From positions 527,081-591,080 of the forward strand of contig NW_005201287.1 of assembly GCF_000372725.1 (NCBI RefSeq): 64,000 nucleotides of DNA, in the 5' to 3' direction. A program made the translations under genes and the position numbers. The notes beneath the pieces are model-generated. The model worked only from the letters and a program-made list of their open reading frames with translations. It did no database searches and was not told where the DNA came from. This DNA comes from Emiliania huxleyi CCMP1516 (Eukaryota). Positions 49,928 through 62,911 of the stretch are shown piece after piece (positions within the stretch are counted from its first letter, which is position 1; each line of letters begins with the position of its first letter).

Positions 49928-51553
49928 TCACCTCTCGCCCTTCTCGCGGACACTCGGCCAGGACATCGGGTCGCACCAGCTGCGGCCGGGCAGCATGATG
50001 TGCCAGTAAAACCACGGCAGCGCGTGCCGCTTGAACGCCCACGCGAGCCGGGACGGCGCGGTGTTCTTGATCAGCCAGCCCGGGAAGCTGGGCATCAGCT
50101 GCCCCCCCCACCCAAACTCGGCCAGAACAACCTTGCCCTTCTCGACCGTCAGCGGGCAAGCGCCGTACCCGTCGTAGACCGCCTCTGTCGGCCTGGCCGC
50201 CGCCGGCGCCAGGTCCTGCAGCAAGTTGTGCACGACGACCGGCGCCTGCTTGCGCGCAGCGGCCATGGTTTTGGCGTTCGGCGCGGAGACGCAATCGCCG
50301 GCGGCAAAGACGTTTTCAAAGTCGACGTGGCGCAGCGTGTCGTGCTCGACGGCGACGAACCCCGTGGCGTCGGCCAGCGGCGATTCGCGCACGCACCGCG
50401 GCGCACGCATCGGAGGCACCACGTGCAGCATCTCGAACTCCTATGCCCGACGCTTCATCTGATCACTAACCAGTCCCGAGCCACCGCGCGAAGCGCCTCT
50501 CGAACTCCTTCTCGACGAGCTGGCCGTCGGCGGTCTGGAACTTCGCGCGCCTCGCTTGCCCATCCACCGCCACGAGGGTGTGGCCATAGCACTCGGTGGC
50601 GCCGTACCGGTCCATGTAGCCCTGCAGCGTCGGCACAAACTCCTTGACGCCAAAGAGCGCCGGCCCAGCCGAGCAGAAGGTCAGGTCGACCGCCGCGCCG
50701 GCGCTCTCCCAGGCGTGCGCAGACAGGTAGAGCGCCTTTTGCGGCGCGCCGGCGCACTTGATTGGCATCGGAGGCTGCGTGAAGATCGCGCGCGGCCGTC
50801 GCCCTCCGGCAGTCGCCTGGACGAGGCGCGGCCGAGGTGCGGCCGAGGTGTGGCCGAGGTGCGGCCGAGGCGCGGCCGAGGTGTGGCCGAGGTGCGGCCG
50901 AGGTGCAGCCGAGGTGCAGCCGAGGTGCAGCCGAGGTGCGGTGCGGCCGAGGTGTGGCCGAGGCGCACCGACAGCTGCTCCACCAGCTCCGCCGTGTACT
51001 GACAGGAGCTGAAGTCGTAGTTTGACGTCACGCCATTCCGGCCGAGGGTAGGCTCGAGCCCTTCGATGGCGCCCCAGTCGAGCTCCAGCCCGGGGGCCAC
51101 CACGAGTCGCTTATACCGAAGAGCGCTCGACTTGCCCTCTTCCTCTCGCAGCCGGAGCTCGTTCTTTTCCGGCACAAACTCGAGCGCTTCCTTTTGGATC
51201 CACTCGACCTGCTCGGGAATCAAGCTCGCCATGTCTGCCCGAGTCTGGGCCGCGTCGAAAGCGCGCCCTCCCACCAGCGTCCAAGCCGGCTGGTAGTAGT
51301 GGGTGCCCGAGGGCTCGATTAGCCCAATGCGCAGATCCGGTGCCTTCTTCCGCAGCAAAGCACAGATAGAGAGGCCAGCAGCCCCGCCACCGACGACAGC
51401 GACATCGTAAATTGGCGCAGCCGACGTGCTGACCGACCGCCGCGCCGAGTGACAGGCCAGCGAGGTGAGCGGGCGCCGAGCGGCGCGACAGGCCAGGGAG
51501 TTGAGCGGGCGCCGAGGGGCGCGACAGGCCAGGGAGGCCAGAGCTGCCCCCAT
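49928..51553 (-). CDS. sqr: Sulfide:quinone oxidoreductase (type II), putatively mitochondrial
   Basis: YDVAVVGGGAAG (FAD), HYYQPAWTLVGG, LVVAPGLELDW, LGRNGVTSNY, FTQPPMPIKCAGAPQKALYL (catalytic Cys), MLHVVPPM, NVFAAGDC...PNAKTMAAARKQAPVV, YDGYGACPL (second Cys), LAEF. Introns at about 50816-50965 and 50441-50507; Arg/Ser-rich N-terminal presequence. Confidence 0.92.
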
Positions 51554-52016
51554 AGGGGGGCTTGCCAACAGCAGCCGGCAGTTGGGGAAACCCAGACGGG
51601 CCCCCTCCCCCCCCCCCCCCGAGCAGCGGCGTTTGGAAGAATTTTAAATGCAACTGCTCCAAGTGCAACTCCTGGATGTGTCTGTTTTCTTTCTTTCTTT
51701 TTACTCCTGGATGTGAGGTTAATGACTGCACTCCAAGTGCTCCAAGTGCTCCTTCGCACGACACTGGGCACGGGACTGGCGCGCACTGGCACTAGCACAG
51801 GTACACCACGCTCCACGGGAGCCGTCCTGCGTTTGGGAAGAAAGCGATTAGTCCGCTTGGGATGTGAAACACTCTGTGCCGCCTCCCAAGCCAATAGTGT
51901 CTCAGGGTCTCTGCCTGACACACATTCCTGCATGCACAGTCACAAACGGTGTAGAGGGACTCATGTCGTGCCACAGGGGCCGGATGGGTAGCAATGTTCG
52001 CATCTTCGGACGCATC

Positions 52017-52629: not shown

Positions 52630-53417
52630 ACACAAGAAAAGAAATTTCCCCCGAACCGCGTCGAACCCATCCAGCGGGCTCTCTCGGCTACGTAACACCG
52701 GAAAATAAGTTCCACGGGCTAGGGGGCACAAGCTCGTCAGCTGTCATGATGTACCCGAAGGGAACCCCAGCGCCAACACCGACGTGGAGTACAAGTGCTC
52801 GAAACGAGAGTGGATCTGAGCAACGACATGACTTGGCGGCAAATGATCCGAGTCGGAGTCAGAAGAGTGGTCCTTGCGGGCTTGCGCAAGGCTCGATAAA
52901 CCAAAATACGATGAGGAGAGGGCGGAGATACGCTGAGAGGCGAGAGAAGCCGCGAGAGCAAGGGATCGACAGCGGCGGCGCAAAACGAGGCCGAGGAGAG
53001 CGCGATGAGTCAGAGGCATGGTCAGAGGATGAAACAGCAGGAGAGAGACGACGAGAGTGGGAAGAACGCGAGGTGGCATGAAGGTCGCTGCGAGAATCGG
53101 CGAGGGACTGCAAAAAGAGAGATAGAAAGAGGCAGATGCCCAAGGATGGGCGACGGCTAGCACCACACTCCTCTTAAAATCCCTGTGGGTGGCGGCGTGT
53201 GCCTTCCTCTCATCCCTCCCTTGCGCGGTGCGGTTATTTCTTTCTTTCCCCACCTGCACGAGCAGGATTTTGGAAGGACGATCAGGGGACTGGGTTGGAC
53301 AAATTCTTTTTCCAGAGCGTCTCACCTTGTCAGGACCTCCGTCTACATCGAGCGTCGACCTTTGCCGCCGAAGCCACAAAGCTCAACGGCCGCCCGCCGC
53401 CGCCTCCGCCACACTCG

Positions 53418-55730
53418 ATGACCCTCCGCCGCAGGATGTCCAGAGGCCGCAGCGCAGAACGCCGCATGTCGACTGCCAAGAAGGACGCCGCGCTCACGGT
53501 GCTGACAGTTGCTTGCGGGTACGACGACTCTCTCCGCGCCTGGGTGGCCCAGCGCATTCGCGCGTACGCCGCTCGCCACGACTATACCGCGCAGGTCTTC
53601 CTGCGGGCGTGGGACGAGCGCTGCGACTCCTCCTCCTGGGAGAAGCTCAACCGTACGCGCGCGGCGCTGCGAGGCGGCGCGCCGTACGTGCTGACGGTGG
53701 ACGCGGACGCGGTGATCCTGCCGACCGCGGGCAGCCTGAGAGATCAGTGCGCGGCGCTCGACGCGGCCGGCAAGACGTGGGCCATGTCGGACGACGAGAA
53801 CGGGCCCAACGGCGGCGTGGTGCTGTACAAGAACGACGCGCGCACGCTTGCGATGCTCGACGAGATGGCGGCGCAGGAGCAGGCGCTGCGGTCGGCCTGG
53901 CTGGCGCCCTTCCACTGGGAGCAGCGCGCCTTCATGTACGCCATCGGCTCGTCGCACTGGGCGCTCAAGAACCGGCTGCAAGGATGGCTCTCGCTCCCTT
54001 CCTCGCCAAACAGCGCCGCCTACGCCGCTACAAAGGGCGCGCTCGACCCGCAGTGGAACACGCGGCTCGACGACGCCTCGCCGCGCCGGTCGATCGTCCA
54101 CCTCGCCGGCGGCCCGCGCGCAAAGGCGACCAAGCCGGCGATGATGCGAGCGCTGCTGCGGCTGGGCGCCACCAACGCGGGGGTACCGCGCGCACCGCTC
54201 CCCCCGCCCGGCACTGTCGCGACAGCCTCTGCTTCTGACCCCGCAGCTGCTCTCTTCCAGGTCGTGCACCGCTTCACTCCCGGCACTGTCGCGACCCGCG
54301 GCATCGTGGCGGAGGCGAGGGGCGCGTGGGCGGGGCAGGGCTTCCGGCTGGATGAGGTGAGCGAGATAGAGCCGAGATAGAGCTGAAGATTCGCCGAGGT
54401 GTATAGACGAGAGAGATAGCCGGGGCCGACACCATGGCCTCCGGCGCTCGGTGGGGTGAGAGGTGGCCGCGCTCTCGGTGCGAGGTGTGTCACGTAGTAG
54501 AGCACCGAGAGAAGGTGTGTCACGGAGAAGGTGTGTCACGTAGTAGAGCAGGAGAGGCGACGAGAGAGTAAGGCATCCTCGACGCGCGGCACATAGGTGA
54601 CCGACCGGTCGGTGGCGCTCGGCCAGGTGGGGCGGCTGGCACACGGCGTGTGCGGCCTCCCTCCCCAGGTCGGCCGCCGCTACCTGCGCGCGTACACCCA
54701 CCCGAACACCTCCTTCGTGCAGCGGGCGGACATGTGGCGGTACGCGCGGCTGCTCACGCAGGGGGGGGTGTACGCGGACGGCGACGCGTCGCCGACGCCG
54801 GCCTTCCTCGGCGAGTACGCGCGCCACATCTCCGAGGGAGGCGAGATCTGGACGAGAGAGAGAGCCGTCATAGAGCCGAGAGAGCGCGCGAGAGCCGAGA
54901 TGAGCAGAGAGAGAGCAGAGAGAGTGCACAGATATCTAGCTTCACATCTCGCGAGGGCGGCGGCGAGGGGCTCTGGGACGGTTGCTGTGGGACCGCTGTG
55001 TTCCTAAGAGCCACGCGCCAAGTCTCTCTCCCAACTTGGTCCCTAGGCGAGGGGCTGCTCTTCTGGGAGACGCCGATCTCGGGCGAGTGGCGCTACCCGT
55101 GGGTGAAGATCGGCGCTCTCACCGGCATCTCCCAGTACGCGCGCATCCCGGAGATGGCGCAGTTTGTGATGGCGAGTGGGCGCCCGTGCGCGCCGTGGCT
55201 CAAGGCGCGCTCCTTCGTTTGGACAGTCAACTCAGTCTCCCAGTCGCCCTCACCCCCCGCGCCCTCNNNNNNNNNNNNNNNNNNNNNNNNNNNNNNNNNN
55301 NNNNNNNNNNNNNNNNNNNNNNNNNNNNNNNNNNNNNNNNNNNNNNNNNNNNNNNNNNNNNNNNNNTTTTTTTTTGGGAAAGAAAAATTAATTTCCCCAG
55401 GGGGCCCTTCCCCCCCCCCCCCCCCCCCCCCCCCCGCGCGCCCCTTCCTCTCAAAAGGCGCTCGTGGAGCTCGTGGCCGACCGTGTCTCTCGCTTCCACG
55501 CGACCGGCGGATTCGAGCGCCGCAGTATGCATGGCAGCCAGGACCGTTCCGTCGTCTACCACACCCTCGTCACAACCGGCCCGGGCGCTCTCACCGACGC
55601 GGCGCGCAACCACCCCGCCGCCTTCGCAAATGTGACGCGGCTTCCGCTCTCCGTCCTCTGGCGCACCGTGCGGCACGCTTCGATGCACTCGTGGCGCATG
55701 CTGGCCTCTCGTGCCGCCGCCGGCGCGTGA
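53418..55730 (+). CDS. Two-domain glycosyltransferase: GT34-like followed by GT32-like (Och1/Gly_transf_sug), multi-exon, spans a gap
   Basis: Domain 1: YAARHDY, SWEKL, VLTVDADAVI (DxD), NGGVVLYKN, WEQRAF, IVHLAG. Domain 2: VQRADMWRYARLLTQGGVYADGD (DxxRY..GGxYxDxD), QFVMAS, TTGPGALT. Confidence 0.7.
55267..55366. other. Assembly gap (100 N)
   Basis: Run of N. Confidence 1.
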
Positions 55731-56494: not shown

Positions 56495-57034
56495 GGAGCA
56501 GGCGCACATCGCTTCCAGGGAGGGGGGCGCGCTTCTCTCCACGCCCCACCCCACCCCTAGCATGTGGTGAAGCCTCTGGGGGGGTCGGGACCCCCCCCCC
56601 TAGCATGTGGTGAAGCCTCTGGGGGGGTCGGACCCCCCCCCCAGGCATGTGGTGGGCACCCCCCAGCAGTTCGTGGGCTAGGAATAGCCGCCAGAGAGCC
56701 GATTTTGCCCCAAAGTTGTGAAATCGTGGCTGAAAGTCCAATATCTTGGAGAATCTGACCAGTCCCAAGGCTCATGTAGCTCCAAAGGATGATCTTCCCC
56801 TCGAAAATGCTGCGAAATGAGGTGTAAAATCAAGGGCCCGGAGGGCCTGACCACGAGTCTCTGGGGGGTCCTCGTCCATGAACCCCCCCCCAGCATGTGG
56901 TGGAGGCGCTGGGGGGGTCGGGACCCCCCCCCTAGCATGTGGTGAAGGTGCTGGGGGGGGGTCGGACCCCCCCCCTAGCATGTGGTGTGGAGAGAAGCGC
57001 GCCCCCCTCCCTGGAAGCGATGTGCGCCTGCTCC
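56495..57034. mobile_element. Putative MITE/foldback element with 48-bp perfect terminal inverted repeats
   Basis: 56495-56542 is the reverse complement of 56987-57034. Internal tandem units of about 43 bp (CCCCCTAGCATGTGGTGAAG..GGGGGGTCGG) lie inside both ends; no clear TSD. Confidence 0.6.
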
Positions 57035-57619
57035 AGCAGTGTCGCTCACACAAGCCGCAGCACAAGTGACTGAGGGCCAGTGAGGGCGAGCCCATCGCTG
57101 TCACAGCTGTGGCAGCTGCACAATGGGCTGTGCCAACTGTGCAGAGCGTGTGAGCAGCAGAGGAGCTGCTCTCCAGGCTTCTGTCGCAAAGAGGTGCATG
57201 CCACCGAGGGCGCTGTCGAGGTTCGCCGGAGCGCGGCGCAGGTTCAGGGAAGCCGCCACCGACCGACGAGCGCGTTGGACTTTTCACTCCGGACAAAAAA
57301 CGCGGCACAGCGGACGGTGCGGGACCGTCTGTGGCGAGGTGGGTCGCGTGCCTGAATAGCTGAATTGAATGACAGCTCGCACGAAGGTGGTGGGCGAAAA
57401 CGGGAGCAGGTACGGCCGCGCGGGGCCACGGCGCGAAAACGGGCGCACGGGTGCCCGGGCGCAAGCGGGCGCGGATTAGGCGCCCGGAGGAGGAGGAGGG
57501 GGGGGGGGGGGTCCCTGTCCCAGGGTCGATCTCGGCTTCTGGCAGCGCGCCGAGCCCAAAGCGTGTGTTTAGGGACGCGAGCCCTCTCTGGCTTGGATTT
57601 AAGCTGTCGAAAGACACGA

Positions 57620-60600
57620 ATGCCCGTCGCAGCCCCCGGGCGAGTCGTATTCGAGTACAGCGTCAGGCGGGAGTCTCAGTCCCCAAACAGCGTTGCTTCC
57701 GAGGCACTTCGGCCTGCGCCTCTCGAATTTGATGGCGAGGCAGAGGAGTCGGCGGATGCCAAAAACACGGAGAGCCCGGGGAGGCCTCGCCGGCCTCGCT
57801 CCGGAGCGGGGACGCTGAAGGGCGTGCAGGCTGCTGTGCGCCTCTCCATTAACAGACAATCAGGCGGCTCTTCTGTCGCAGGGTGCATCAGCGAAAATAC
57901 CGCGGCGTCGCTGGAGGCCGTGCAGGCCGCTGTGGTCCAGGCGACCGCCGTCGCCAAGCGCATCGAAGCTGGCGAGCTGCAAGACGGTGGCCTGCTTGAG
58001 CCAAAGGGCACGGTGCTAGAGTCGCGCAAGCGCCGGCAGCGTTTGGCGACCCAGGTGGTTCTCTGGGTCGTGCCACTGCTTTGCAGCGTCTGGTTCGCCG
58101 CGGCAGTGTTCTTCCCGCCTGGCGCTCAGGATAGAGTGCCTGCGCTGCTCTGGACGCCTGGAGCGACGGTCTGGATAAACGGCACGGTGACCTGCTGTCC
58201 AAAGCCTTCTCTCTGTTCGGAAGGGTGGGCGCAGCTCTGGCTATTGATCATTGCCCGGCTGAGCGCATTTGCCATGTACCCGAGTTTGGTGCTCGTCTTC
58301 TTCTCAAAGTGCCATGCAACGCTGCGCTTCCTCTCCCGCACCTTCGTCGCCGAGCTGCTGCCGCTCGCGCTCTTCCACGGCACGCACACCTTTCACGGAC
58401 TTGTCTTTGCAAGCCTCGCCCTCCTGCACACGGTCGTTCACATCGTGCGGTGGGCGCTACGAGACGAGATCATCCCGTACCTCGGCCGCTGGGCAGGCAT
58501 GAGCGGGGCCATCGGCACCACACTTATGGTCGCCGTGACGGGCAGCATGCTACTGCCGCGGCTGCAGCGATGGCCAAGGGTCGGCCGGCTCGCGGCTCTG
58601 GGCAGGGCGCCCTTTGAGATCCGATTCAATGTGCACTATCTCTTCTTGCCCCTCATCGTCGTCCTGTGCATCCACGCCAGCCGCCTGATGGTCGCCACTC
58701 TCGTCGCCGCGTGCGTCTGGGGGGGCGACTACTTGTACCAGGTGGTCTGCCGCACGTTCCGGCTGGACGTCGTCGAGTTCACGCGCCTCGAGGACGGCGG
58801 CGTGCAGGTGCTGTGGACCAATCCGCGGGGCTTCGCGCCAAACAGCGGCGAGTACGTGAAGATACAGATCCCGTGGCTTCCGGAACCGTACGGCAGCCAG
58901 TGGCACACCCTTCCTTGCTCTCTTCGTTGTCACCTTAGTAGTCGTGCAGTCACCCTTCAGTGTGCTGGTCCTGCAGGCACCCCTTCAGCCTCTACTTGCG
59001 CGAGGCCACTGCAAAGGGTGCGCAAACGAGACAGAGCGCCCTCTCCCCACCTCAGCGCGCTGCCGACTCCCGCCCGCTTGTACCACAGGCCTCTCTGTCG
59101 CCAACGCAGCCGGCGGCGAGCTGCAGGAGAACCGGCGCGTCTTCTCGGCGGCGGAGGCAAAGGGAGGCTCCGACGTCGTGCCCAGCAAGACCGCCCTCCT
59201 GATGATCGAGTTCCAGAACGAGTTCACGAGCGAGGGGGGCAAGCTCCACCTCTCCGTCAAGGATGTGATGGAGAGCCAGGACATGCTCGCCAAGTGCCAG
59301 CGCCTCTGCCGCACCGCGCGCACGTGCGGCGCAAAGGTCTTCCATCTCCCAATCACGTTTGAGAAGGCGGACGGCAGCGACAACCCCAACGCGAGGCTGG
59401 GCATCCTCAAGGGGTGCCAGGACGGGCAGCTCTTCCGTGCCTTCACCTGGGCGGCGGACTTCCACCCGATGATGACGCCCTCGCCGGGCGACGTCGTGGT
59501 CAAGGGCAAGCGCGGCCTCGACTCCTTCCCGGGGACGGACCTCGAGGCGCGGCTGCGGGAGCACGGCATCGAGACGGTGGTGATCGGTGGCCTGCTCACC
59601 AATTGCTGCGTCGAGTCGACCATGCGCACCGCTTTCGAGAAGGGGTGCCGAGCCGGGGCTGGGCGCCCGCGCTACTGCTCGTGGTTGCTCATCTGCCGCA
59701 CGATGCCGGCCGCAGGTACAACACCGTGACTCTCACCGACGGCACGGCGTGCTTTTCGGCAGCGGAGCAGGACGCGGCGACCAACGGCACCTTCAAGGCT
59801 CGCGGCTCCTCGCGCGCACTAGACTGGAGAGGGCGTAGCGGACGGGCCGCCTGAACTGGCTCGGCTGCCCCGCCCGCGCGCGCAGATGTTTTCGACGCCC
59901 ATGAAGTGCGACGACGTTGCCGCGCTGCTCGAGGACCCCGCGAGGCGGGAGAGTGTCATGAACGCGGCGGAGGCCGCCTCGAGGCTGACCGACAGCCTCG
60001 CCAGCATCGCCGAGTCGCAGCAGGTGGACGCCGACGGCCAGCACGCGGTCTCCATCGACGAGGACGCGCGGCGAGGGCTCGAAACGTTCGACACCACTCA
60101 GATCTTCGTGATGCCCGTCGGAGACTGGACGCGCGCGCTCTCGCAGGCCGTCCTCAAGCGCCGCCAGCGACGCGCGTGCTGGGTGCGCGGGCCCTTCGTC
60201 TCGCCCTACGCCGCCGCCAAGGACTTTTCGCAGCTGATCCTCTACGCCTCGGGCATTGGTGTGCTCCGAGCTGCAGCCGAGACTTGCACGCGAGGACTGT
60301 CCGACACGCCCGCACGGCACACACGCCCGTAGGCATCACGCCCGCGCTGGGGGTTATGGGGCAGTACGCGGGGTCGACACGGATGAAGTTCCTCGTCTGG
60401 TCGACGCGCTCGGCGCCGATGCTCAAGTTCTTCGCGCCGCTGCTCGGGGACGCGCAGCTGGCGATGATCTTCTACACGGGCAGGCCCAGGCTCGGGCAGG
60501 CGGAGCTGGACGCGATCACCAGCCAGGGGGGCAACATCATCGTCCAGCAGCACCGGCCCGATCTGCTGCACACGCTCGAGGAGGTGATGCGCGGGTACGA

Positions 60601-60778
60601 AAAGAGCGCCGCCGGCATCAGCCGGGCCGGGGAGCTCGACCTGCGGCGGCTCGACCACAACACGAGGGCCGCCTGGTGCGCGCTGTACTGTGGGGGCTCG
60701 CACGCGATCCGTGACCAGCTCGAGGGTTGCGCAAAGGACCTCGGCATCGGGTTCCAGGCGGAGCTATTTGATTGGTGA
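57620..60778 (+). CDS. Ferric reductase/NADPH oxidase-family flavocytochrome with an inserted isochorismatase-family cysteine hydrolase domain
   Basis: TM region with heme-ligand His pairs (HTFH...LLHTVVH; NVHYLF...CIH). FAD domain GEYVKIQIPWL...WHPFS and later VGDWTRAL...VRGPF. NAD(P)H domain LYASGIGITP, LVWSTR, LYCGG, and C-terminal ELFDW. Between HPFS and GDWT lies TALLMIEFQNEF...VVKGKRGLDSFPGTDLE...GGLLTNCCVESTMRTAFEKGY. Multi-exon. Confidence 0.88.
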
Positions 60779-62911
60779 TTAGTGAGCCCTGAGGCCTGTA
60801 TCGGCTGAAATTTTAGTTGGGTGAGCAGAGAGCCGAGGCATGCCTACGCGTTGTGAATTAGGTGTCTGTTGTGTGGCGATGAGTAGGTAGCTAAGGAAGG
60901 AAGGCAAGGTAAAATTCTCCACACACACAAAGTGGTGGGGCAAGGGGGGGGGGGGGGGGGCGACCCTCGCTGCATGCTCGCATCTCCACAGGCCTACTCC
61001 ATACCACGCGCACGGCTTTATAGAGCTGTGGCGGGTAGCCTGCTACGCGCGGTGCTAGGGTTCTCCGTTTTGTGCAGCACGCGGGGCGCTCTTTTCGATA
61101 GTTATGAGCAGGCGTGCGCGAAGCATTGGACGGTGTGGTTGGCGTCAGGCTCTCTCATTGCGGTCGCGGCACGCTCTTGACTTGGGCAGAGCGCGTTGCG
61201 CCCCGACCGCTGTAATCCTCTTGTATTGCGGTATATCCTGTTCTCAACGAATCTCGGAAACTCACAATACAATCCAGCGCATTAGCGCCGACCCTACGTC
61301 TGGATTTGAAGGGAGGGAACCGCAGCAGCAGTTGGTGGAATTCCACCGCGCACTGGAGGTGGCAGCCGGGGTGGTGGTGATGGCATTGGGAGTCGACGCC
61401 TCGGCAGAGGGACCTGTGCCTCCTTGGCGCAAGCCCTGCTCCTGGTGGCCGCTCGTGCCTGCCGGTGTGCGGCAGCGGCGGCGTCGTTGACGATGGCGAG
61501 GAACATGGCGCGCTGCGGGCCTGGCAATCCAATTGACCAATTGATGAATTGGGCGGGCGCCAACAATTCACGCAGGTATTTTATTTTTGCTTGCCGGACG
61601 TCATGACGGGGGAGGTAGGGTAGGTCCGGGCCCTCCCGTCGGGGGTTTCCCTCTCTTCACGCCGGAATTTTCACGGCAGAAAAAGAAATTTCCCGCTGAA
61701 ATCACACGCTGTCAACCCTCCCTAAATGAGCAGGAGAACTAGGAGAGCGCAACCAGTAGGAGGCCCGCGCCTGCCCCCGTGCCGCCGGGTGCAACCCGTC
61801 CTATACGAGAGAGGAATCCCTGGGACGACCCTGTCGTGTGGGTGAACCCTGCCCAGCCCCCCTCCGTGTCGCGATGCGCTCCCCCACTCCCGTTCCCCTG
61901 TGTCCCTGATCGTCCTTCCAAGATCCTGCTCGTGCAGCTCTCGACACAAGCACAAGGTGGCCGTCAACGCGCGGGATTGGACCGAGCTGCGCGCCGCTCT
62001 CGACACAGAGAGCGCCCTCCTCGGGCAAGGGGCCAAGGTAGGCCACTTTGCGGTCATGCTGCGACGTCTGAGTGAGATCCCGCAAGCGCAGGACAAGTTC
62101 TGGCGCTACATGGAGCTCGATCCTGAACATCCAGAACGAGCTCTACTTCCGCTCGCCCGAGTACAAGCTCACCTCCCACATCCTCAAGACCGGCACGACG
62201 GCCTTCCCCACCCAGATGGCCGAGTCTGACGTTACGGACAGTTGGTCGCTCACGCCCTAGGTGGGGACCTTTGTCCTCCTCCCATCCCTCGAGCCTCGTT
62301 TGGTTTGTCTGTTTTCTTTCTTTCTTTTACCCTCCCTAAATGGGTGATCTGGTGCTTGTCGGGCTTGAGAGTGGCCTGCCATGTCACAGGAAGGACTGTG
62401 GTTGGTTGCAGGAGAGTACCACCAACCATCACTTTTTTGTTAAGGTTCTTCGGGCCAGTTTGGGGGGGCAAACCCTGCCCGCCCCCTAGAACCCCAGGTA
62501 AGGCCCAGGTGTGGCCTAGGGCATCAGAAGGGACCAAGAGGAGTCCAGTCTGAGCCATAGAGCCCATGTCTTTGCCCACGAAGGTCGCGTTCAAACGCCC
62601 GGAACGGACGTTACAGTGGTGTCCGGCCGGCGCGATCACCGAGCTGTGACGCTCAGGGAAGCCGGTTGAGGTGCTGGTTTCTTTGCCCAGGGCTGGCCTT
62701 CCCCCCAGGCTGGATCAGCTGAGCAAGGTTTGGGGAGAATCCCCCATTCAGATCTTCAGATATTTTGACGGATGACCGAAAATGGGCAAAAACGGGGTGA
62801 TTTTGGTGTGGCGAGGGCCGAGGCGGTCGAAGACAGTTTTTTTCTTTTTAGCGGTTATGTGCTGTGCCGCCCGAGGATTAATAATTAATAATTATTACCC
62901 GATTATTAATA

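What the first reader, a model, noticed from the sequence alone, without database searches (positions are those of the whole stretch)
57620..60778. Ferric reductase/NOX with an isochorismatase-family hydrolase inserted inside its FAD-binding domain
Seen: the FAD-domain motifs WHPFS (about 58900-58990) and GDWT (about 60120-60131), normally a few tens of residues apart, are separated by more than 250 residues. The insert contains a complete cysteine hydrolase (IEFQNEF, KGKRGLDSF, TNCCVES; about 59170-59930), and the heme His pairs and NADPH motifs remain. Known: this hydrolase family includes nicotinamidases, isochorismatases and amidases. Inference: the cytosolic insert could couple a metabolite (nicotinamide, siderophore-like or amide substrate) to transmembrane electron transfer, relevant to iron uptake or ROS production. 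I know of no described FRE/NOX with this insertion.
Basis: partly seen in the sequence, partly recalled or inferred. Interest (0 to 1): 0.8.

Follow-up and report, generated by a model that had tools for sequence, protein, structure and literature searches.

The report
NADPH oxidase with nested hydrolase domain
A coccolithophore gene, shared with diatoms, encodes an NADPH-oxidase-type membrane enzyme with a whole cysteine-hydrolase domain built into its FAD-binding domain, an apparently undescribed design that likely gives this predicted superoxide-producing oxidase a built-in regulator.

Summary
Window 57620-60778 (+) is one six-exon Emiliania huxleyi gene for a 926-aa protein. Spliced contigs from 8 runs of 7 studies remove the same five introns, two of them GC-AG, and keep the hydrolase in frame.

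The frame of the protein is a divergent NOX-type flavocytochrome. A family profile matches NOX5 at 1e-26, DUOX1 at 5e-24 and NOX2 at 1e-16. The heme histidine pairs, an HxxxH motif, HPFS, GDWT and GIGITP are all present.

300 residues lie between HPFS and GDWT, against 17-18 in canonical relatives. They hold a complete isochorismatase-like hydrolase (Pfam 6.5e-37; Z 29.2 to PDB 3KL2) with an intact Glu-Lys-Cys triad.

The NCBI annotation splits the gene in two (EMIHUDRAFT_201051 and 201052).

The same nesting occurs in diatoms (Chaetoceros, Thalassiosira, Proboscia, Corethron). The nested domains form one group in the tree. 20 of 44 nested copies have lost a triad residue, against 0 of 81 non-nested eukaryotic copies and 0 of 35 bacterial copies. 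The role shared across the clade is therefore probably not catalysis, and is more likely regulatory or structural.

No paper describing this architecture was found. The function is untested. I rate it a new variant of a known kind, of moderate to high interest.

The parts
57558..57619 (+). 5' untranslated region (the transcript contigs begin between 57558 and 57610)
   Evidence: Contig starts, table 8. No ATG lies upstream of 57620 within them.
57620..58902 (+). Exon 1. It encodes residues 1-427 and two bases of W428: a disordered N-terminus (1-~130), six predicted membrane helices (132-377) and the first strands of the FAD-binding barrel.
   Evidence: Helices come from the model. DUOX1/NOX5 similarity is shown.
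58256..58258 (+). R213, the invariant Arg in membrane helix 2. Its match to the Arg at the NOX O2 site is recalled, not tested.
   Evidence: Present in every alignment row that covers it.
58385..58441 (+). Membrane helix 3 histidines: H256 (58385-58387) and H270 (58427-58429), spaced 14 apart, plus H274 (58439-58441), which is the NOX2 His-119-type HxxxH position.
   Evidence: Aligned with the NOX5 motif FHQLMG...LVHTVAH. The discriminating rule comes from PMC3591440 section 14.
58634..58675 (+). Membrane helix 5 histidines H339 and H352, spaced 13 apart.
58903..58976 (+). Intron 1, 74 nt, GC..AG.
   Evidence: Joint seen in 8 of 8 runs. Only the GC..AG register within the 5-nt ambiguity has canonical-type ends, and it keeps W428.
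58977..59017 (+). Exon 2: the last base of W428, then HPFSLYLREATAK and the first base of G442 (FAD motif HPFS at 58978-58989).
59018..59088 (+). Intron 2, 71 nt, GT..AG.
   Evidence: Joint seen in 7 of 8 runs. In X8 the loose ends match the spliced partner.
59089..59644 (+). Exon 3: the upstream linker (low model confidence at residues 451-458) and about three quarters of the hydrolase domain.
   Evidence: PF00857 at E 5.5e-30. 3KL2 at 1.4e-44.
59169..59942 (+). The nested isochorismatase-like hydrolase domain (residues about 469-673, interrupted by introns 3 and 4).
   Evidence: Pfam match at residues 476-661, E 6.5e-37. VIA-align Z 29.2, rmsd 1.9, 202 residues aligned to 3kl2_E over model residues 469-673. 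Foldseek TM 0.92 normalised to the target.
59208..59210 (+). E482, the acid of the predicted triad. It aligns with RutB D24, and Glu is the norm in the 3KL2 subfamily.
   Evidence: alignment. Glu in 35 of 35 bacterial loci and 81 of 81 non-NOX eukaryotic domains.
59508..59510 (+). K582, the predicted catalytic Lys (motif GKRGLDSF).
59604..59609 (+). C614-C615, a vicinal cysteine pair. C615 is the predicted nucleophile and aligns with RutB C166.
   Evidence: alignment.
59645..59715 (+). Intron 3, 71 nt, GT..AG.
   Evidence: Joint seen in 8 of 8 runs.
59716..59797 (+). Exon 4 (hydrolase residues 627-654).
59798..59885 (+). Intron 4, 88 nt, GC..AG. This is where the NCBI models 201051 and 201052 are split.
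   Evidence: Joint seen in 8 of 8 runs. P0234 reads through into this intron, and P0235 starts just after it.
59886..60258 (+). Exon 5: the end of the hydrolase, the downstream linker (low model confidence at residues 688-720), the second half of the FAD barrel with GDWT (60120-60131), and the start of the NADPH domain (GIG).
   Evidence: NOX5 residue 453 onward aligns here.
60259..60332 (+). Intron 5, 74 nt, GT..AG.
   Evidence: Joint seen in 8 of 8 runs.
60333..60778 (+). Exon 6: the NADPH-binding domain (ITP of GIGITP, CGG at residues 898-900, C-terminal W926) and the TGA stop.
   Evidence: Profile matches to NOX2 and to the csNOX5 dehydrogenase domain. 5o0x gives Z 20.8 over model residues 375-926.
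60779..60903 (+). 3' untranslated region.
   Evidence: Contigs end at about 60903-60909 (table 8).

Best explanation
This is one spliced six-exon Emiliania huxleyi gene for a 926-residue NOX-type membrane flavocytochrome with a complete isochorismatase-like cysteine-hydrolase domain nested inside its FAD-binding domain; the nested domain likely acts as a cytosolic regulatory or ligand-sensing module of a predicted superoxide-producing oxidase, not as a step in electron transfer.

Shown:
- One transcript carries the whole coding sequence.
- The frame has six membrane helices, two bis-histidine heme sites, HPFS, GDWT, GIGITP and a C-terminal Trp.
- The hydrolase sits as an excursion between the HPFS strand and the GDWT helix. 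Its two linkers are of low model confidence.
- In this species the Glu-Lys-Cys triad is intact.
- The same nesting is conserved in diatoms.

Inferred:
- Electrons would pass from NADPH to FAD, through the two hemes, to O2 on the far side of the membrane. This rests on the NOX-type HxxxH motif and the Ser/Thr-Gly dipeptide.
- The nested domain lies on the cytosolic side next to the flavin lobe. By binding a small amide-type ligand, by oxidation of its Cys614-Cys615 pair, or by self-association, it would modulate docking of the dehydrogenase lobes and so the electron flow.
- In E. huxleyi the domain may in addition still be an active amidohydrolase.
For: One gene:
- Five identical joints occur in 8 runs of 7 studies. 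Single contigs cover the whole coding sequence or the whole laid stretch (X2 record 6, 2944 nt; X11 record 1; X13 record 6).
- A 926-aa protein and an MMETSP transcript match the model.

NOX frame:
- The profile of alignment A2 matches NOX5 at 1e-26, DUOX1 at 5.3e-24, NOX2 at 1e-16, the csNOX5 dehydrogenase domain at 1.7e-13 and the csNOX5 membrane domain at 1.2e-9. NOX5 residues 448 and 453 flank a jump of 271 profile positions.
- Foldseek matches DUOX1, NOX5 and NOX2. 5o0x gives Z 20.8 with 229 residues aligned across model residues 375-926.
- The core residues are present in every row that covers them.
- The His-119-type histidine is present, which is the rule in PMC3591440 section 14.

Nested domain:
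- PF00857 at 6.5e-37, 3KL2 at Z 29.2, and the triad by alignment with RutB.
- The model has mean pLDDT 79.8, with linkers 451-458 and 688-720 below 50.

Conservation:
- 33 clusters at 90% identity cover the whole region 395-800. Named members are E. huxleyi and five diatom genera.
- The 44 nested domains form one side of a branch with 100% support.
- The nested domain is more conserved than the membrane part: 52-57% identity against 41-43% to the same diatom proteins.

Non-catalytic shared role:
- The full triad is kept in 24 of 44 nested domains. It is kept in 81 of 81 non-nested eukaryotic domains and in 35 of 35 bacterial loci that could be scored.
Against: - No activity was measured for the oxidase, a ferric reductase or the hydrolase.
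- The window protein itself stays below Pfam's thresholds for all three NOX/FRE families. The NADPH-adenine motif is CGG, not CGP.
- The membrane-helix 4 dipeptide is Ser-Gly here, not Thr-Gly.
- The E. huxleyi lineage keeps the full triad in 5 of 5 rows, so in this species catalysis may be the point.
- The hydrolase was apparently lost several times from the frame, leaving a 64-125-residue loop. An AU test rejects the hydrolase-bearing frames as one clade (p 2.7e-5). The oxidase therefore works without the domain in some lineages.
- The position of the domain relative to the flavin lobe is not established. pTM is 0.63, no coordinates could be inspected, and the linkers are of low confidence.
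- Assembled contigs cannot exclude a rare isoform that lacks the domain.
Confidence: 0.45

Rival explanations
1. Catalytic coupling. The nested domain is an active cysteine amidohydrolase whose turnover is the purpose of the fusion. It would process an amide or ureide next to the oxidase and so link nitrogen or cofactor metabolism to electron export.
For: - The Glu482-Lys582-Cys615 triad is intact in the window protein and in all 5 rows of its close group.
- The fold is nearly identical to 3KL2 (Z 29.2).
- The subfamily keeps the triad in every non-nested copy (81 of 81; 35 of 35 bacterial), so the ancestral domain was very probably an enzyme.
Against: - 20 of 44 nested copies have lost at least one triad residue. 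Of these, 5 have lost all three, and 16 have Ser, Gly, Asn or Val in place of the nucleophile. The rest of the domain stays conserved in those copies.
- No substrate is known for the 3KL2 group (3KL2 appears only as a comparison structure in the papers listed).
- Bacterial neighbourhoods gave no pathway hint.
- No chemical link between an amidase reaction and NADPH-to-O2 electron flow is evident.
Confidence: 0.25
2. The frame is a ferric or cupric chelate reductase used for metal uptake, not an oxygen-reducing NADPH oxidase. The insert would then modulate metal reduction.
For: - Weak Pfam hits in relatives are to the ferric-reductase families PF01794, PF08022 and PF08030.
- One cluster member is labelled 'ferric-chelate reductase' by its source.
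- Diatoms have several FRE paralogues of unknown role (PMC4460010, passages read).
Against: - The extra histidine four residues after the second heme ligand of helix 3 is present in all rows. PMC3591440 section 14 uses it to separate ROS-producing NOX from metalloreductases.
- The best solved-structure matches are NOX5, DUOX1 and NOX2.
- The family has CGG where the diatom FRE survey required C-G/A/V-P, so that survey's motif filter would exclude it.
- All of this is rule-of-thumb evidence.
Confidence: 0.2
3. The domain is a tolerated passenger or a purely structural piece, for example an oligomerisation handle. It was inserted once into an already long loop, has no ligand or redox sensing, and is slowly decaying.
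For: - The loop was already long in the sister group without a hydrolase (P0097 and P0293, 125 and 64 residues).
- The domain was lost repeatedly, and triad residues have decayed in many lineages.
- 3KL2 crystallised with 12 chains, and this hydrolase superfamily is usually oligomeric (the latter point is recalled).
Against: - The domain is retained across haptophytes and at least five diatom genera.
- It is more conserved than the membrane domain (52-57% against 41-43% identity).
- Motifs outside the triad (QNEF, GLDxFxGT, ESTMRTAYEK) are kept even in copies that have lost the triad. This indicates purifying selection on something.
Confidence: 0.15
4. This is an artefact. The region holds two adjacent genes, as in the NCBI annotation, or a misassembly, or the hydrolase is normally spliced out.
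For: - NCBI lists two models, EMIHUDRAFT_201051 (671 aa) and EMIHUDRAFT_201052 (267 aa).
- Minor contigs retain intron 1, 4 or 5 (X1 record 2; X9 record 8; X7 record 11, X9 record 10, X12 record 3).
Against: - Eight runs of seven studies share the five joints and give one open frame.
- The split lies exactly at a GC..AG intron. Model 201051 reads through it to a stop and also loses W428 by forcing a GT donor.
- The FAD barrel is incomplete without exon 5.
- Diatom orthologues have the same architecture on single transcripts and in one genome-annotated 939-aa protein.
- No joint that skips the hydrolase was listed in any of the 8 runs.
Confidence: 0.02

Closest known systems
NOX5 / DUOX / NOX2 (NADPH oxidase family; solved structures 6sz5, 8u7y, 7d3e, 8gz3, 8wej; csNOX5 5o0t and 5o0x)
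   Same: Six-helix bis-heme membrane domain with His pairs spaced 14 and 13 apart. The extra HxxxH histidine is present. HPF[ST] and GDWT are in the FAD barrel, GIGITP in the NADPH domain, and there is a C-terminal aromatic residue.
   Different: About 280 extra residues, including a whole alpha/beta hydrolase domain, lie between the HPFS strand and GDWT, where NOX5 has about 4 residues between the aligned blocks. There are no EF-hands in this protein. The motif is CGG instead of CGP. The window protein is below Pfam thresholds.
Algal 'preNOX' / red-algal NoxD oxidases with four extra membrane helices in the dehydrogenase region (PMC3591440 section 14; earlier scan finding e1-558870, which cites Herve et al. 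2006)
   Same: An algal NOX-type enzyme whose cytosolic dehydrogenase region is interrupted by a large conserved insertion.
   Different: [quoted passage not shown] Here it is a soluble enzyme fold inside the FAD-binding barrel, upstream of GDWT.
PDB 3KL2, a putative isochorismatase of Streptomyces avermitilis, and its bacterial subfamily
   Same: 46-47% identity, Z 29.2, rmsd 1.9 over 202 residues. The Glu-Lys-Cys triad and vicinal Cys-Cys motif are the same (IE[FY]QNEF, GKRGLD, TNCCVESTMR).
   Different: 3KL2 is a free-standing bacterial protein of unknown substrate. Here the domain is nested in a membrane oxidase on two linkers.
RutB, biuret and triuret hydrolases (BiuH, TrtA), N-carbamoylsarcosine amidase
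   Same: These are the next-closest characterised relatives (E 4e-15 to 1e-9 for the single sequence; Z 22-24). They have the same Asp/Glu-Lys-Cys chemistry on small amides.
   Different: Only 24-27% identity. No substrate can be inferred. Nicotinamidases (about 1e-7) and true isochorismatases such as EntB and PhzD (2e-7 to 8e-4 with the profile) are more distant by sequence.
Connecting domain of cytochrome P450 reductase and NOS reductase (recalled; not tested here)
   Same: A precedent for a separate domain inserted into an FNR-type FAD-binding barrel that controls inter-domain electron transfer.
   Different: A different insertion site and a helical, non-enzymatic domain in soluble or membrane-anchored diflavin reductases. 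This comparison is from memory only.

Membership tests
NOX/FRE ferric-reductase-domain superfamily | Membrane domain with two bis-histidine heme sites (helix 3 His pair spaced 14, helix 5 His pair spaced 13) | tested here: met
   H256/H270 and H339/H352 are present in every row that covers them. They align with the NOX5 histidines. Six helices span residues 132-377 in the model.
NOX/FRE ferric-reductase-domain superfamily | FAD-binding motifs HPF[ST] and G-D-W-T | tested here: met
   HPFS at 429-432 and GDWT at 733-736. Both align with NOX5 'WHPFT' and 'GQWT'.
NOX/FRE ferric-reductase-domain superfamily | NADPH-binding motif G-I-G-[IV]-T-P and the FNR-like dehydrogenase fold | tested here: met
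   GIGITP at 777-782. csNOX5 dehydrogenase domain 5o0x gives Z 20.8, rmsd 2.6 and 229 aligned residues, and profile E 1.7e-13.
NOX/FRE ferric-reductase-domain superfamily | NADPH-adenine motif C-G-P (the filter used in PMC4460010 allows C-[GAV]-P) | tested here: not met
   The motif is C898-G899-G900. Among the 51 of 54 rows that cover these columns, C and G are in 50 each and the third residue is G in 47. The motif definition was read in PMC4460010 passages.
NOX/FRE ferric-reductase-domain superfamily | Pfam gathering scores for PF01794, PF08022 and PF08030 | tested here: not met
   The window protein has no hit, either exon by exon or as a whole. Close relatives score below the cut-off, and remote family members score above it. 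Membership therefore rests on profile and fold evidence.
ROS-producing NOX group, as opposed to metalloreductases | His-119-type histidine four residues after the second heme ligand of helix 3 | tested here: met
   H274 is present in all rows that cover it. The rule comes from PMC3591440 section 14.
ROS-producing NOX group, as opposed to metalloreductases | Thr-178/Gly-179-type dipeptide in helix 4 | tested here: inconclusive
   The window protein has S295-G296. Across the 41 rows that cover it, 33 have Ser, 8 have Thr, and Gly is in all 41. NOX5 'PTG' aligns here.
ROS-producing NOX group, as opposed to metalloreductases | NADPH-dependent superoxide or H2O2 production | not testable with these tools
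   Needs an enzyme assay.
Isochorismatase-like hydrolase superfamily (PF00857) | Pfam model above the gathering score | tested here: met
   127.7 bits against a cut-off of 27, E 6.5e-37, residues 476-661.
Isochorismatase-like hydrolase superfamily (PF00857) | Three-layer alpha/beta fold of the family | tested here: met
   3kl2_E gives Z 29.2, rmsd 1.9 and 202 of 204 residues aligned. Foldseek gives TM 0.92.
Cysteine-hydrolase branch (RutB, BiuH, CSHase type) | Asp/Glu-Lys-Cys catalytic triad | tested here: met
   E482, K582 and C615 by alignment with RutB. In the wider nested clade the full triad is present in only 24 of 44 copies.
Nicotinamidase (PncA type) | Metal-binding Asp/His/His site and close sequence kinship | not tested
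   Only distant matches were found (3o90 at 2.7e-7). The metal ligands were not examined.
True isochorismatase (EntB, PhzD type) | No Cys nucleophile, vinyl-ether hydrolysis, close sequence kinship | tested here: not met
   The Cys nucleophile is present. These are the most distant sequence matches (2fq1 at 2.1e-7 and 1nf9 at 8.2e-4 with the profile).
Red-algal NoxD / preNOX insertion type | Four extra membrane helices between the FAD and NADPH domains | tested here: not met
   The insert is a soluble hydrolase fold lying before GDWT. The definition comes from PMC3591440 section 14.

The most novel reading that the evidence does not exclude
This is a metabolite-gated or thiol-gated NADPH oxidase. 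The nested hydrolase has been turned into a built-in sensor. It would sense either a small amide or ureide nitrogen metabolite, or H2O2 through the vicinal Cys614-Cys615 pair. The sensor switches transmembrane electron export on or off. The design arose once, is shared by diatoms and coccolithophores, and underlies the regulated extracellular superoxide production of marine phytoplankton, whose enzymatic source is still unknown.
Probability: 0.2. Interest if true: 0.85.

Novelty: new variant of a known kind. Interest (0 to 1): 0.62.

Why it matters
NADPH oxidases are regulated in known cases by EF-hands, cytosolic subunits or maturation factors. An enzyme fold nested inside the FAD-binding barrel would be a new way of building control, or a second activity, into this family.

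The architecture is conserved in two of the ocean's main groups of primary producers, coccolithophores and diatoms. These organisms make extracellular superoxide by enzymes that are not yet identified; the introduction of PMC6640029 treats NOX as a suspected source.

The clade also offers a natural experiment. Copies with an intact triad, copies with a decayed triad and copies with the hydrolase deleted all exist in one enzyme frame, which makes the role of the domain directly testable.

On the practical side, the reference annotation of E. huxleyi splits the gene in two. A published diatom ferric-reductase survey used a motif filter (C-G/A/V-P) that this family, with CGG, does not pass. The family is therefore likely to be missed in surveys of iron and ROS genes.

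Tried and rejected
- Pfam on single exons and at E up to 10 gave no NOX/FRE hit. phmmer of exon 6 against PDB gave no NOX hit. The NOX identity needed a family profile and a fold.
- The look-up of sequencing runs listed no RNA holder. The runs are marked 'RNA? (a guess)'. I take them as cDNA-derived only because they carry the five joints.
- No whole genome is held for this window, so paralogues within the genome could not be searched. tblastn of P0013 against the window found only this copy.
- Splicing out the hydrolase: by eye I found a possible GC donor after '...EAT' and an acceptor before 'IFVMPVGDWT'. No such joint was listed in any of the 8 runs. Contigs cannot exclude a rare isoform.
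- Bacterial gene neighbourhoods of the 3KL2-type hydrolase: among 80 loci the most frequent neighbours were a BPD_transp_2 permease (11 of 80), a GGDEF-EAL protein (9 of 80) and an IMPDH-like protein (8 of 80). There is no conserved operon and no substrate hint. My ORF picker captured the hydrolase ORF with both motifs in only 35 of the 80 loci.
- Complex prediction (two copies of residues 459-690, to test self-association) was never run because the queue was full.
- The ESM Atlas gave only low-score leads (0.76-0.77) to ferric-reductase clusters.
- The search of earlier findings held nothing for this genome or this sequence.
- Literature: the gene and protein accession numbers gave no hit. 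The four-word search 'isochorismatase, NADPH oxidase, FAD-binding, transmembrane' gave no paper. The listed titles and abstract beginnings of the hits for 'ferric reductase + isochorismatase' (13 of 14 listed) and for 'NADPH oxidase / isochorismatase / haptophyte' (20 of 54 listed) showed none about a fusion. One search was too broad to be useful.
- Supplementary tables, for example expression tables that list E. huxleyi protein ids, were not searched and may hold expression data for 201051 and 201052.
- The neighbouring ORFs in the window (a Pyr_redox_2 fragment at 50681-51568 on the minus strand, a weak GT34 match at 53199-54380) show no link to the gene.

Full report
**What is in the sequence**

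The region 57620-60778 on the + strand is GC-rich (0.63-0.70) and is not one bacterial-type ORF. Pieces of one protein lie in different frames. Reading the DNA, I derived a six-exon model:
- exons 57620-58902, 58977-59017, 59089-59644, 59716-59797, 59886-60258 and 60333-60778;
- introns of 74, 71, 71, 88 and 74 nt; introns 1 and 4 have GC..AG ends and the others GT..AG;
- a coding sequence of 2778 nt plus the stop, giving 926 residues.

**Transcript evidence**

The look-up of sequencing runs listed 13 holders from 7 studies with about 0.77-0.79 of the sampled words. Their kind is only guessed as RNA.

I laid 8 of these runs: X1, X2, X7 and X8, and X9, X11, X12 and X13. They come from 7 studies.
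- The five joints appear at exactly the predicted places in 39 of 40 run-by-intron cells.
- The missing cell is intron 2 in X8. There the loose ends at 59018 and 59088 read into the spliced partner.
- X2 record 6 (2944 nt) is one contig from 57582 to 60903 with all five introns removed.
- X11 record 1 (2953 nt) and X13 record 6 (2890 nt) cover the whole laid stretch with all five joints.
- No joint that skips the hydrolase was listed.
- Short minor contigs retain intron 1 (X1 record 2), intron 4 (X9 record 8) or intron 5 (X7 record 11, X9 record 10, X12 record 3).
- Contigs drop rare variants, so a rare alternative isoform is not excluded.

**Database identity**

The hydrolase exon, searched against longer proteins (84 hits among 1413 candidates), found P0013. 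This protein has 926 aa and is 100% identical over the query, and its sequence equals my model apart from two allelic residues.

Its cluster holds an MMETSP transcript of 926 aa and two NCBI models of Emiliania huxleyi CCMP1516:
- EMIHUDRAFT_201051 (XP_005789242.1, 671 aa);
- EMIHUDRAFT_201052 (XP_005789243.1, 267 aa).

Model 201051 runs through the GC..AG intron 4 to a stop. It also lacks W428 because a GT donor was forced at intron 1. Model 201052 starts just after intron 4. The reference annotation therefore splits one gene in two.

**The frame is a NOX-type flavocytochrome**

The window protein alone is too divergent for Pfam's ferric-reductase models. With phmmer it only weakly matches DUOX1 (8e-4).

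A HMMER search with exon 1 against 1.84 billion representatives gave 414 relatives at E up to 0.001. Pfam on 54 of the longer ones shows a family whose remote members pass the thresholds for Ferric_reduct, FAD_binding_8 and NAD_binding_6.

A profile of the 54-row alignment A2 matches:
- human NOX5 at 1e-26;
- DUOX1 at 5.3e-24;
- NOX2 at 1e-16;
- the csNOX5 dehydrogenase domain at 1.7e-13 and the csNOX5 membrane domain at 1.2e-9.

In the NOX5 alignment, 'EWHPFT' (ending at residue 448) and 'EQKDTIWLHIRSQGQWT' (from residue 453) flank a jump from profile position 324 to 595. This shows the nesting directly.

The core residues are present in every row that covers them:
- R213;
- H256 and H270 (spacing 14);
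- H274;
- H339 and H352 (spacing 13);
- [S/T]295-G296;
- HPFS, GDWT and GIGITP;
- CGG;
- a C-terminal Trp.

H274 is the His-119-type histidine. PMC3591440 (section 14, read) proposes it, together with a Thr-Gly dipeptide, as the mark of ROS-producing NOX against metalloreductases. The dipeptide is Ser-Gly in this protein.

The AlphaFold2 model has mean pLDDT 79.8 and pTM 0.63 and shows six long helices at 132-377. Foldseek finds DUOX1, NOX5 and NOX2, with 8wej_B at a target-normalised TM of 0.61. VIA-align gives csNOX5 5o0x Z 20.8, rmsd 2.6 and 229 aligned residues across model residues 375-926. The dehydrogenase fold is thus complete around the insert.

**The insert**

Between S432 and G733 there are:
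- 300 residues in this protein;
- 17-18 residues in 6 remote canonical members;
- 64-149 residues in 12 members without a hydrolase;
- 298-429 residues in hydrolase-bearing full rows.

Residues about 469-673 are an isochorismatase-like hydrolase:
- PF00857 at 6.5e-37;
- PDB 3KL2 at 1.4e-44 and 46-47% identity;
- Z 29.2 and rmsd 1.9 over 202 residues.

The two linkers (451-458 and 688-720) have pLDDT below 50.

By alignment with RutB the triad is E482, K582 and C615, with C614 directly before the nucleophile. Glu in place of Asp is the norm for this subfamily. It is found in 35 of 35 bacterial loci that my script could score out of 80 fetched, and in 81 of 81 non-nested eukaryotic domains.

After 3KL2, the next relatives by sequence are RutB, biuret and triuret hydrolases and carbamoylsarcosine amidase. 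Nicotinamidases and true isochorismatases are more distant. The substrate of the 3KL2 group is unknown. In the papers listed, 3KL2 appears only as a comparison structure; I saw the listing only.

**Distribution and history**

A search with residues 395-800 (67 hits at E up to 1e-20) found 33 clusters that cover the whole region: the barrel's first half, the hydrolase, the barrel's second half and the start of the NADPH domain.

Named members are E. huxleyi and the following diatoms:
- Chaetoceros debilis;
- C. tenuissimus (GFH59650.1, 939 aa, a single annotated protein);
- Proboscia inermis and P. alata;
- Thalassiosira sp. NH16;
- Corethron pennatum.

In a tree of 125 hydrolase domains (quick IQ-TREE), the 44 nested domains are one side of a branch with 100% SH-aLRT support against 81 others. 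This fits a single origin of the nesting.

In a tree of the NOX core with the insert columns removed (38 rows), a 97%-supported group of 27 rows holds all 20 hydrolase-bearing rows and 7 rows that have only a loop. An AU test rejects the hydrolase-bearing frames as one clade (p 2.7e-5).

Taken together, the most economical reading is one insertion into an already lengthened loop, followed by several losses that left a 77-123-residue remnant with the same flanks (EATxEGL... and ...EEAR...TTQVF). The sister group P0097 and P0293 has 125 and 64 residues there and no hydrolase. These are quick trees. The root of the hydrolase tree is unknown, and the rows were chosen from search hits.

**What the nested domain does**

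Nothing was measured, so the following is inference.

The key comparative result is that the full Glu/Asp-Lys-Cys triad is kept in only 24 of 44 nested domains. In the 36 rows of A2 the figure is 17 of 36, with the nucleophile replaced by Ser in 13, Gly in 4, Asn in 1 and Val in 1. By contrast, all 81 non-nested eukaryotic copies and all 35 scored bacterial copies keep it.

Yet the nested domain as a whole is better conserved than the membrane domain: 52-57% against 41-43% identity to the same diatom proteins. Motifs outside the triad persist in the copies that have lost it.

This pattern is what one expects when an enzyme fold is kept for binding, sensing or assembly and not for turnover. I therefore favour a regulatory or ligand-sensing role for the clade. 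The E. huxleyi group keeps the triad in 5 of 5 rows and may still be catalytically active.

Relatives in the wider NOX family carry other sensor or supply modules: EF-hands, a cyclic-nucleotide-binding domain, BLUF and G6PD. This shows that the frame readily accepts regulatory domains.

**Comparison with what is known, and novelty**

The closest known systems are:
- NOX5, DUOX and NOX2, for the frame;
- the algal preNOX/NoxD oxidases with four extra membrane helices in the dehydrogenase region (PMC3591440 section 14; earlier scan finding e1-558870), as a precedent for a large insertion;
- 3KL2, for the insert.

I found no paper describing a NOX or FRE with an isochorismatase-type domain:
- the searches found none;
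- the words isochorismatase, Emiliania and diatom do not occur in PMC3591440;
- the words isochorismatase, Emiliania, haptophyt, diatom and stramenopil do not occur in PMC9421330.

The diatom iron-gene survey PMC4460010 (passages read) filtered FRE candidates on C-[GAV]-P, which this CGG family does not satisfy.

The sequences themselves are already public as hypothetical or automatically named proteins. The novelty therefore lies in recognising the architecture, its conservation and its decay pattern. I rate it a new variant of a known kind.

**Limits**

- No activity, localisation or expression data were obtained.
- The runs' RNA status is inferred from the joints.
- Model coordinates could not be inspected, so the position of the domain relative to the flavin is unknown.
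- Supplementary tables of published E. huxleyi transcriptome studies were not searched.

Noticed in passing
window 57620-60778; introns 58903-58976 and 59798-59885: The NCBI annotation of E. huxleyi CCMP1516 splits this gene into EMIHUDRAFT_201051 (671 aa) and EMIHUDRAFT_201052 (267 aa), exactly at a GC..AG intron. It also drops W428 at the other GC..AG intron. Two of the five introns use GC donors.
   Followed up: yes
P0125, P0132, P0139, P0096, P0145 and others (relatives of exon 1): The wider protist NOX family carries many other fused or nested modules. These include G6PD plus a cyclic-nucleotide-binding domain (P0125, 1406 aa), cNMP-binding plus RRM (P0132), a C-terminal BLUF blue-light sensor (P0139), N-terminal EF-hands (P0096), and EF-hands lying downstream of the first NAD_binding_6 match (several). 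Another group (P0110, P0117, P0119) has 113-149 residues matching no Pfam family at the same HPFS-GDWT site.
   Followed up: partly
P0001-P0084, P0288: The same 3KL2-type hydrolase subfamily is a promiscuous module in marine protists. It occurs in tandem double and triple copies. It is fused to UDP-glucose pyrophosphorylase (one member is from Haptolina, and some also carry a Redoxin domain), phosphoglucomutase, glycerol-3-phosphate dehydrogenase, DUF4336, PH domains and a methyltransferase. All 81 such copies examined keep the Glu-Lys-Cys triad.
   Followed up: partly
window 58877-59005, 59768-59913, 60230-60361: Short, lower-depth contigs retain intron 1, intron 4 (with a 7-nt deletion in X9) or intron 5. 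Retaining intron 4 would give a protein that ends just after the hydrolase, like NCBI model 201051. This may be unspliced pre-mRNA or DNA carry-over.
   Followed up: no
window 56549-56654 and 56882-56987; 57487-57512; 60945-60961; 57300-57423 and 60896-61000: Two 43-bp tandem repeat arrays of related sequence lie upstream of the gene. G-runs flank the gene on both sides. The stretches just outside the transcript attract very high summed contig depth (up to 3466) with many loose ends, so they are repeated elements in the transcriptome or genome.
   Followed up: no
window 58525, 59438, 59603, 60083, 60379, 60488: Single-base differences between the window and the contigs recur across runs. At 59438 the window has T, while some runs have C and others G. 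This points to strain or allele variation. P0013 also differs from the window at two residues (G/D in KGVQ and A/S in GATVW).
   Followed up: no
window 50681-51568 (-) and 53199-54380 (+): Among the neighbouring long ORFs, one has a Pyr_redox_2 flavoprotein match (1.3e-9) and one a weak glycosyltransferase family 34 match (5.3e-5). The other 8 ORFs tested had no Pfam hit. No link to the NOX gene is evident.
   Followed up: partly
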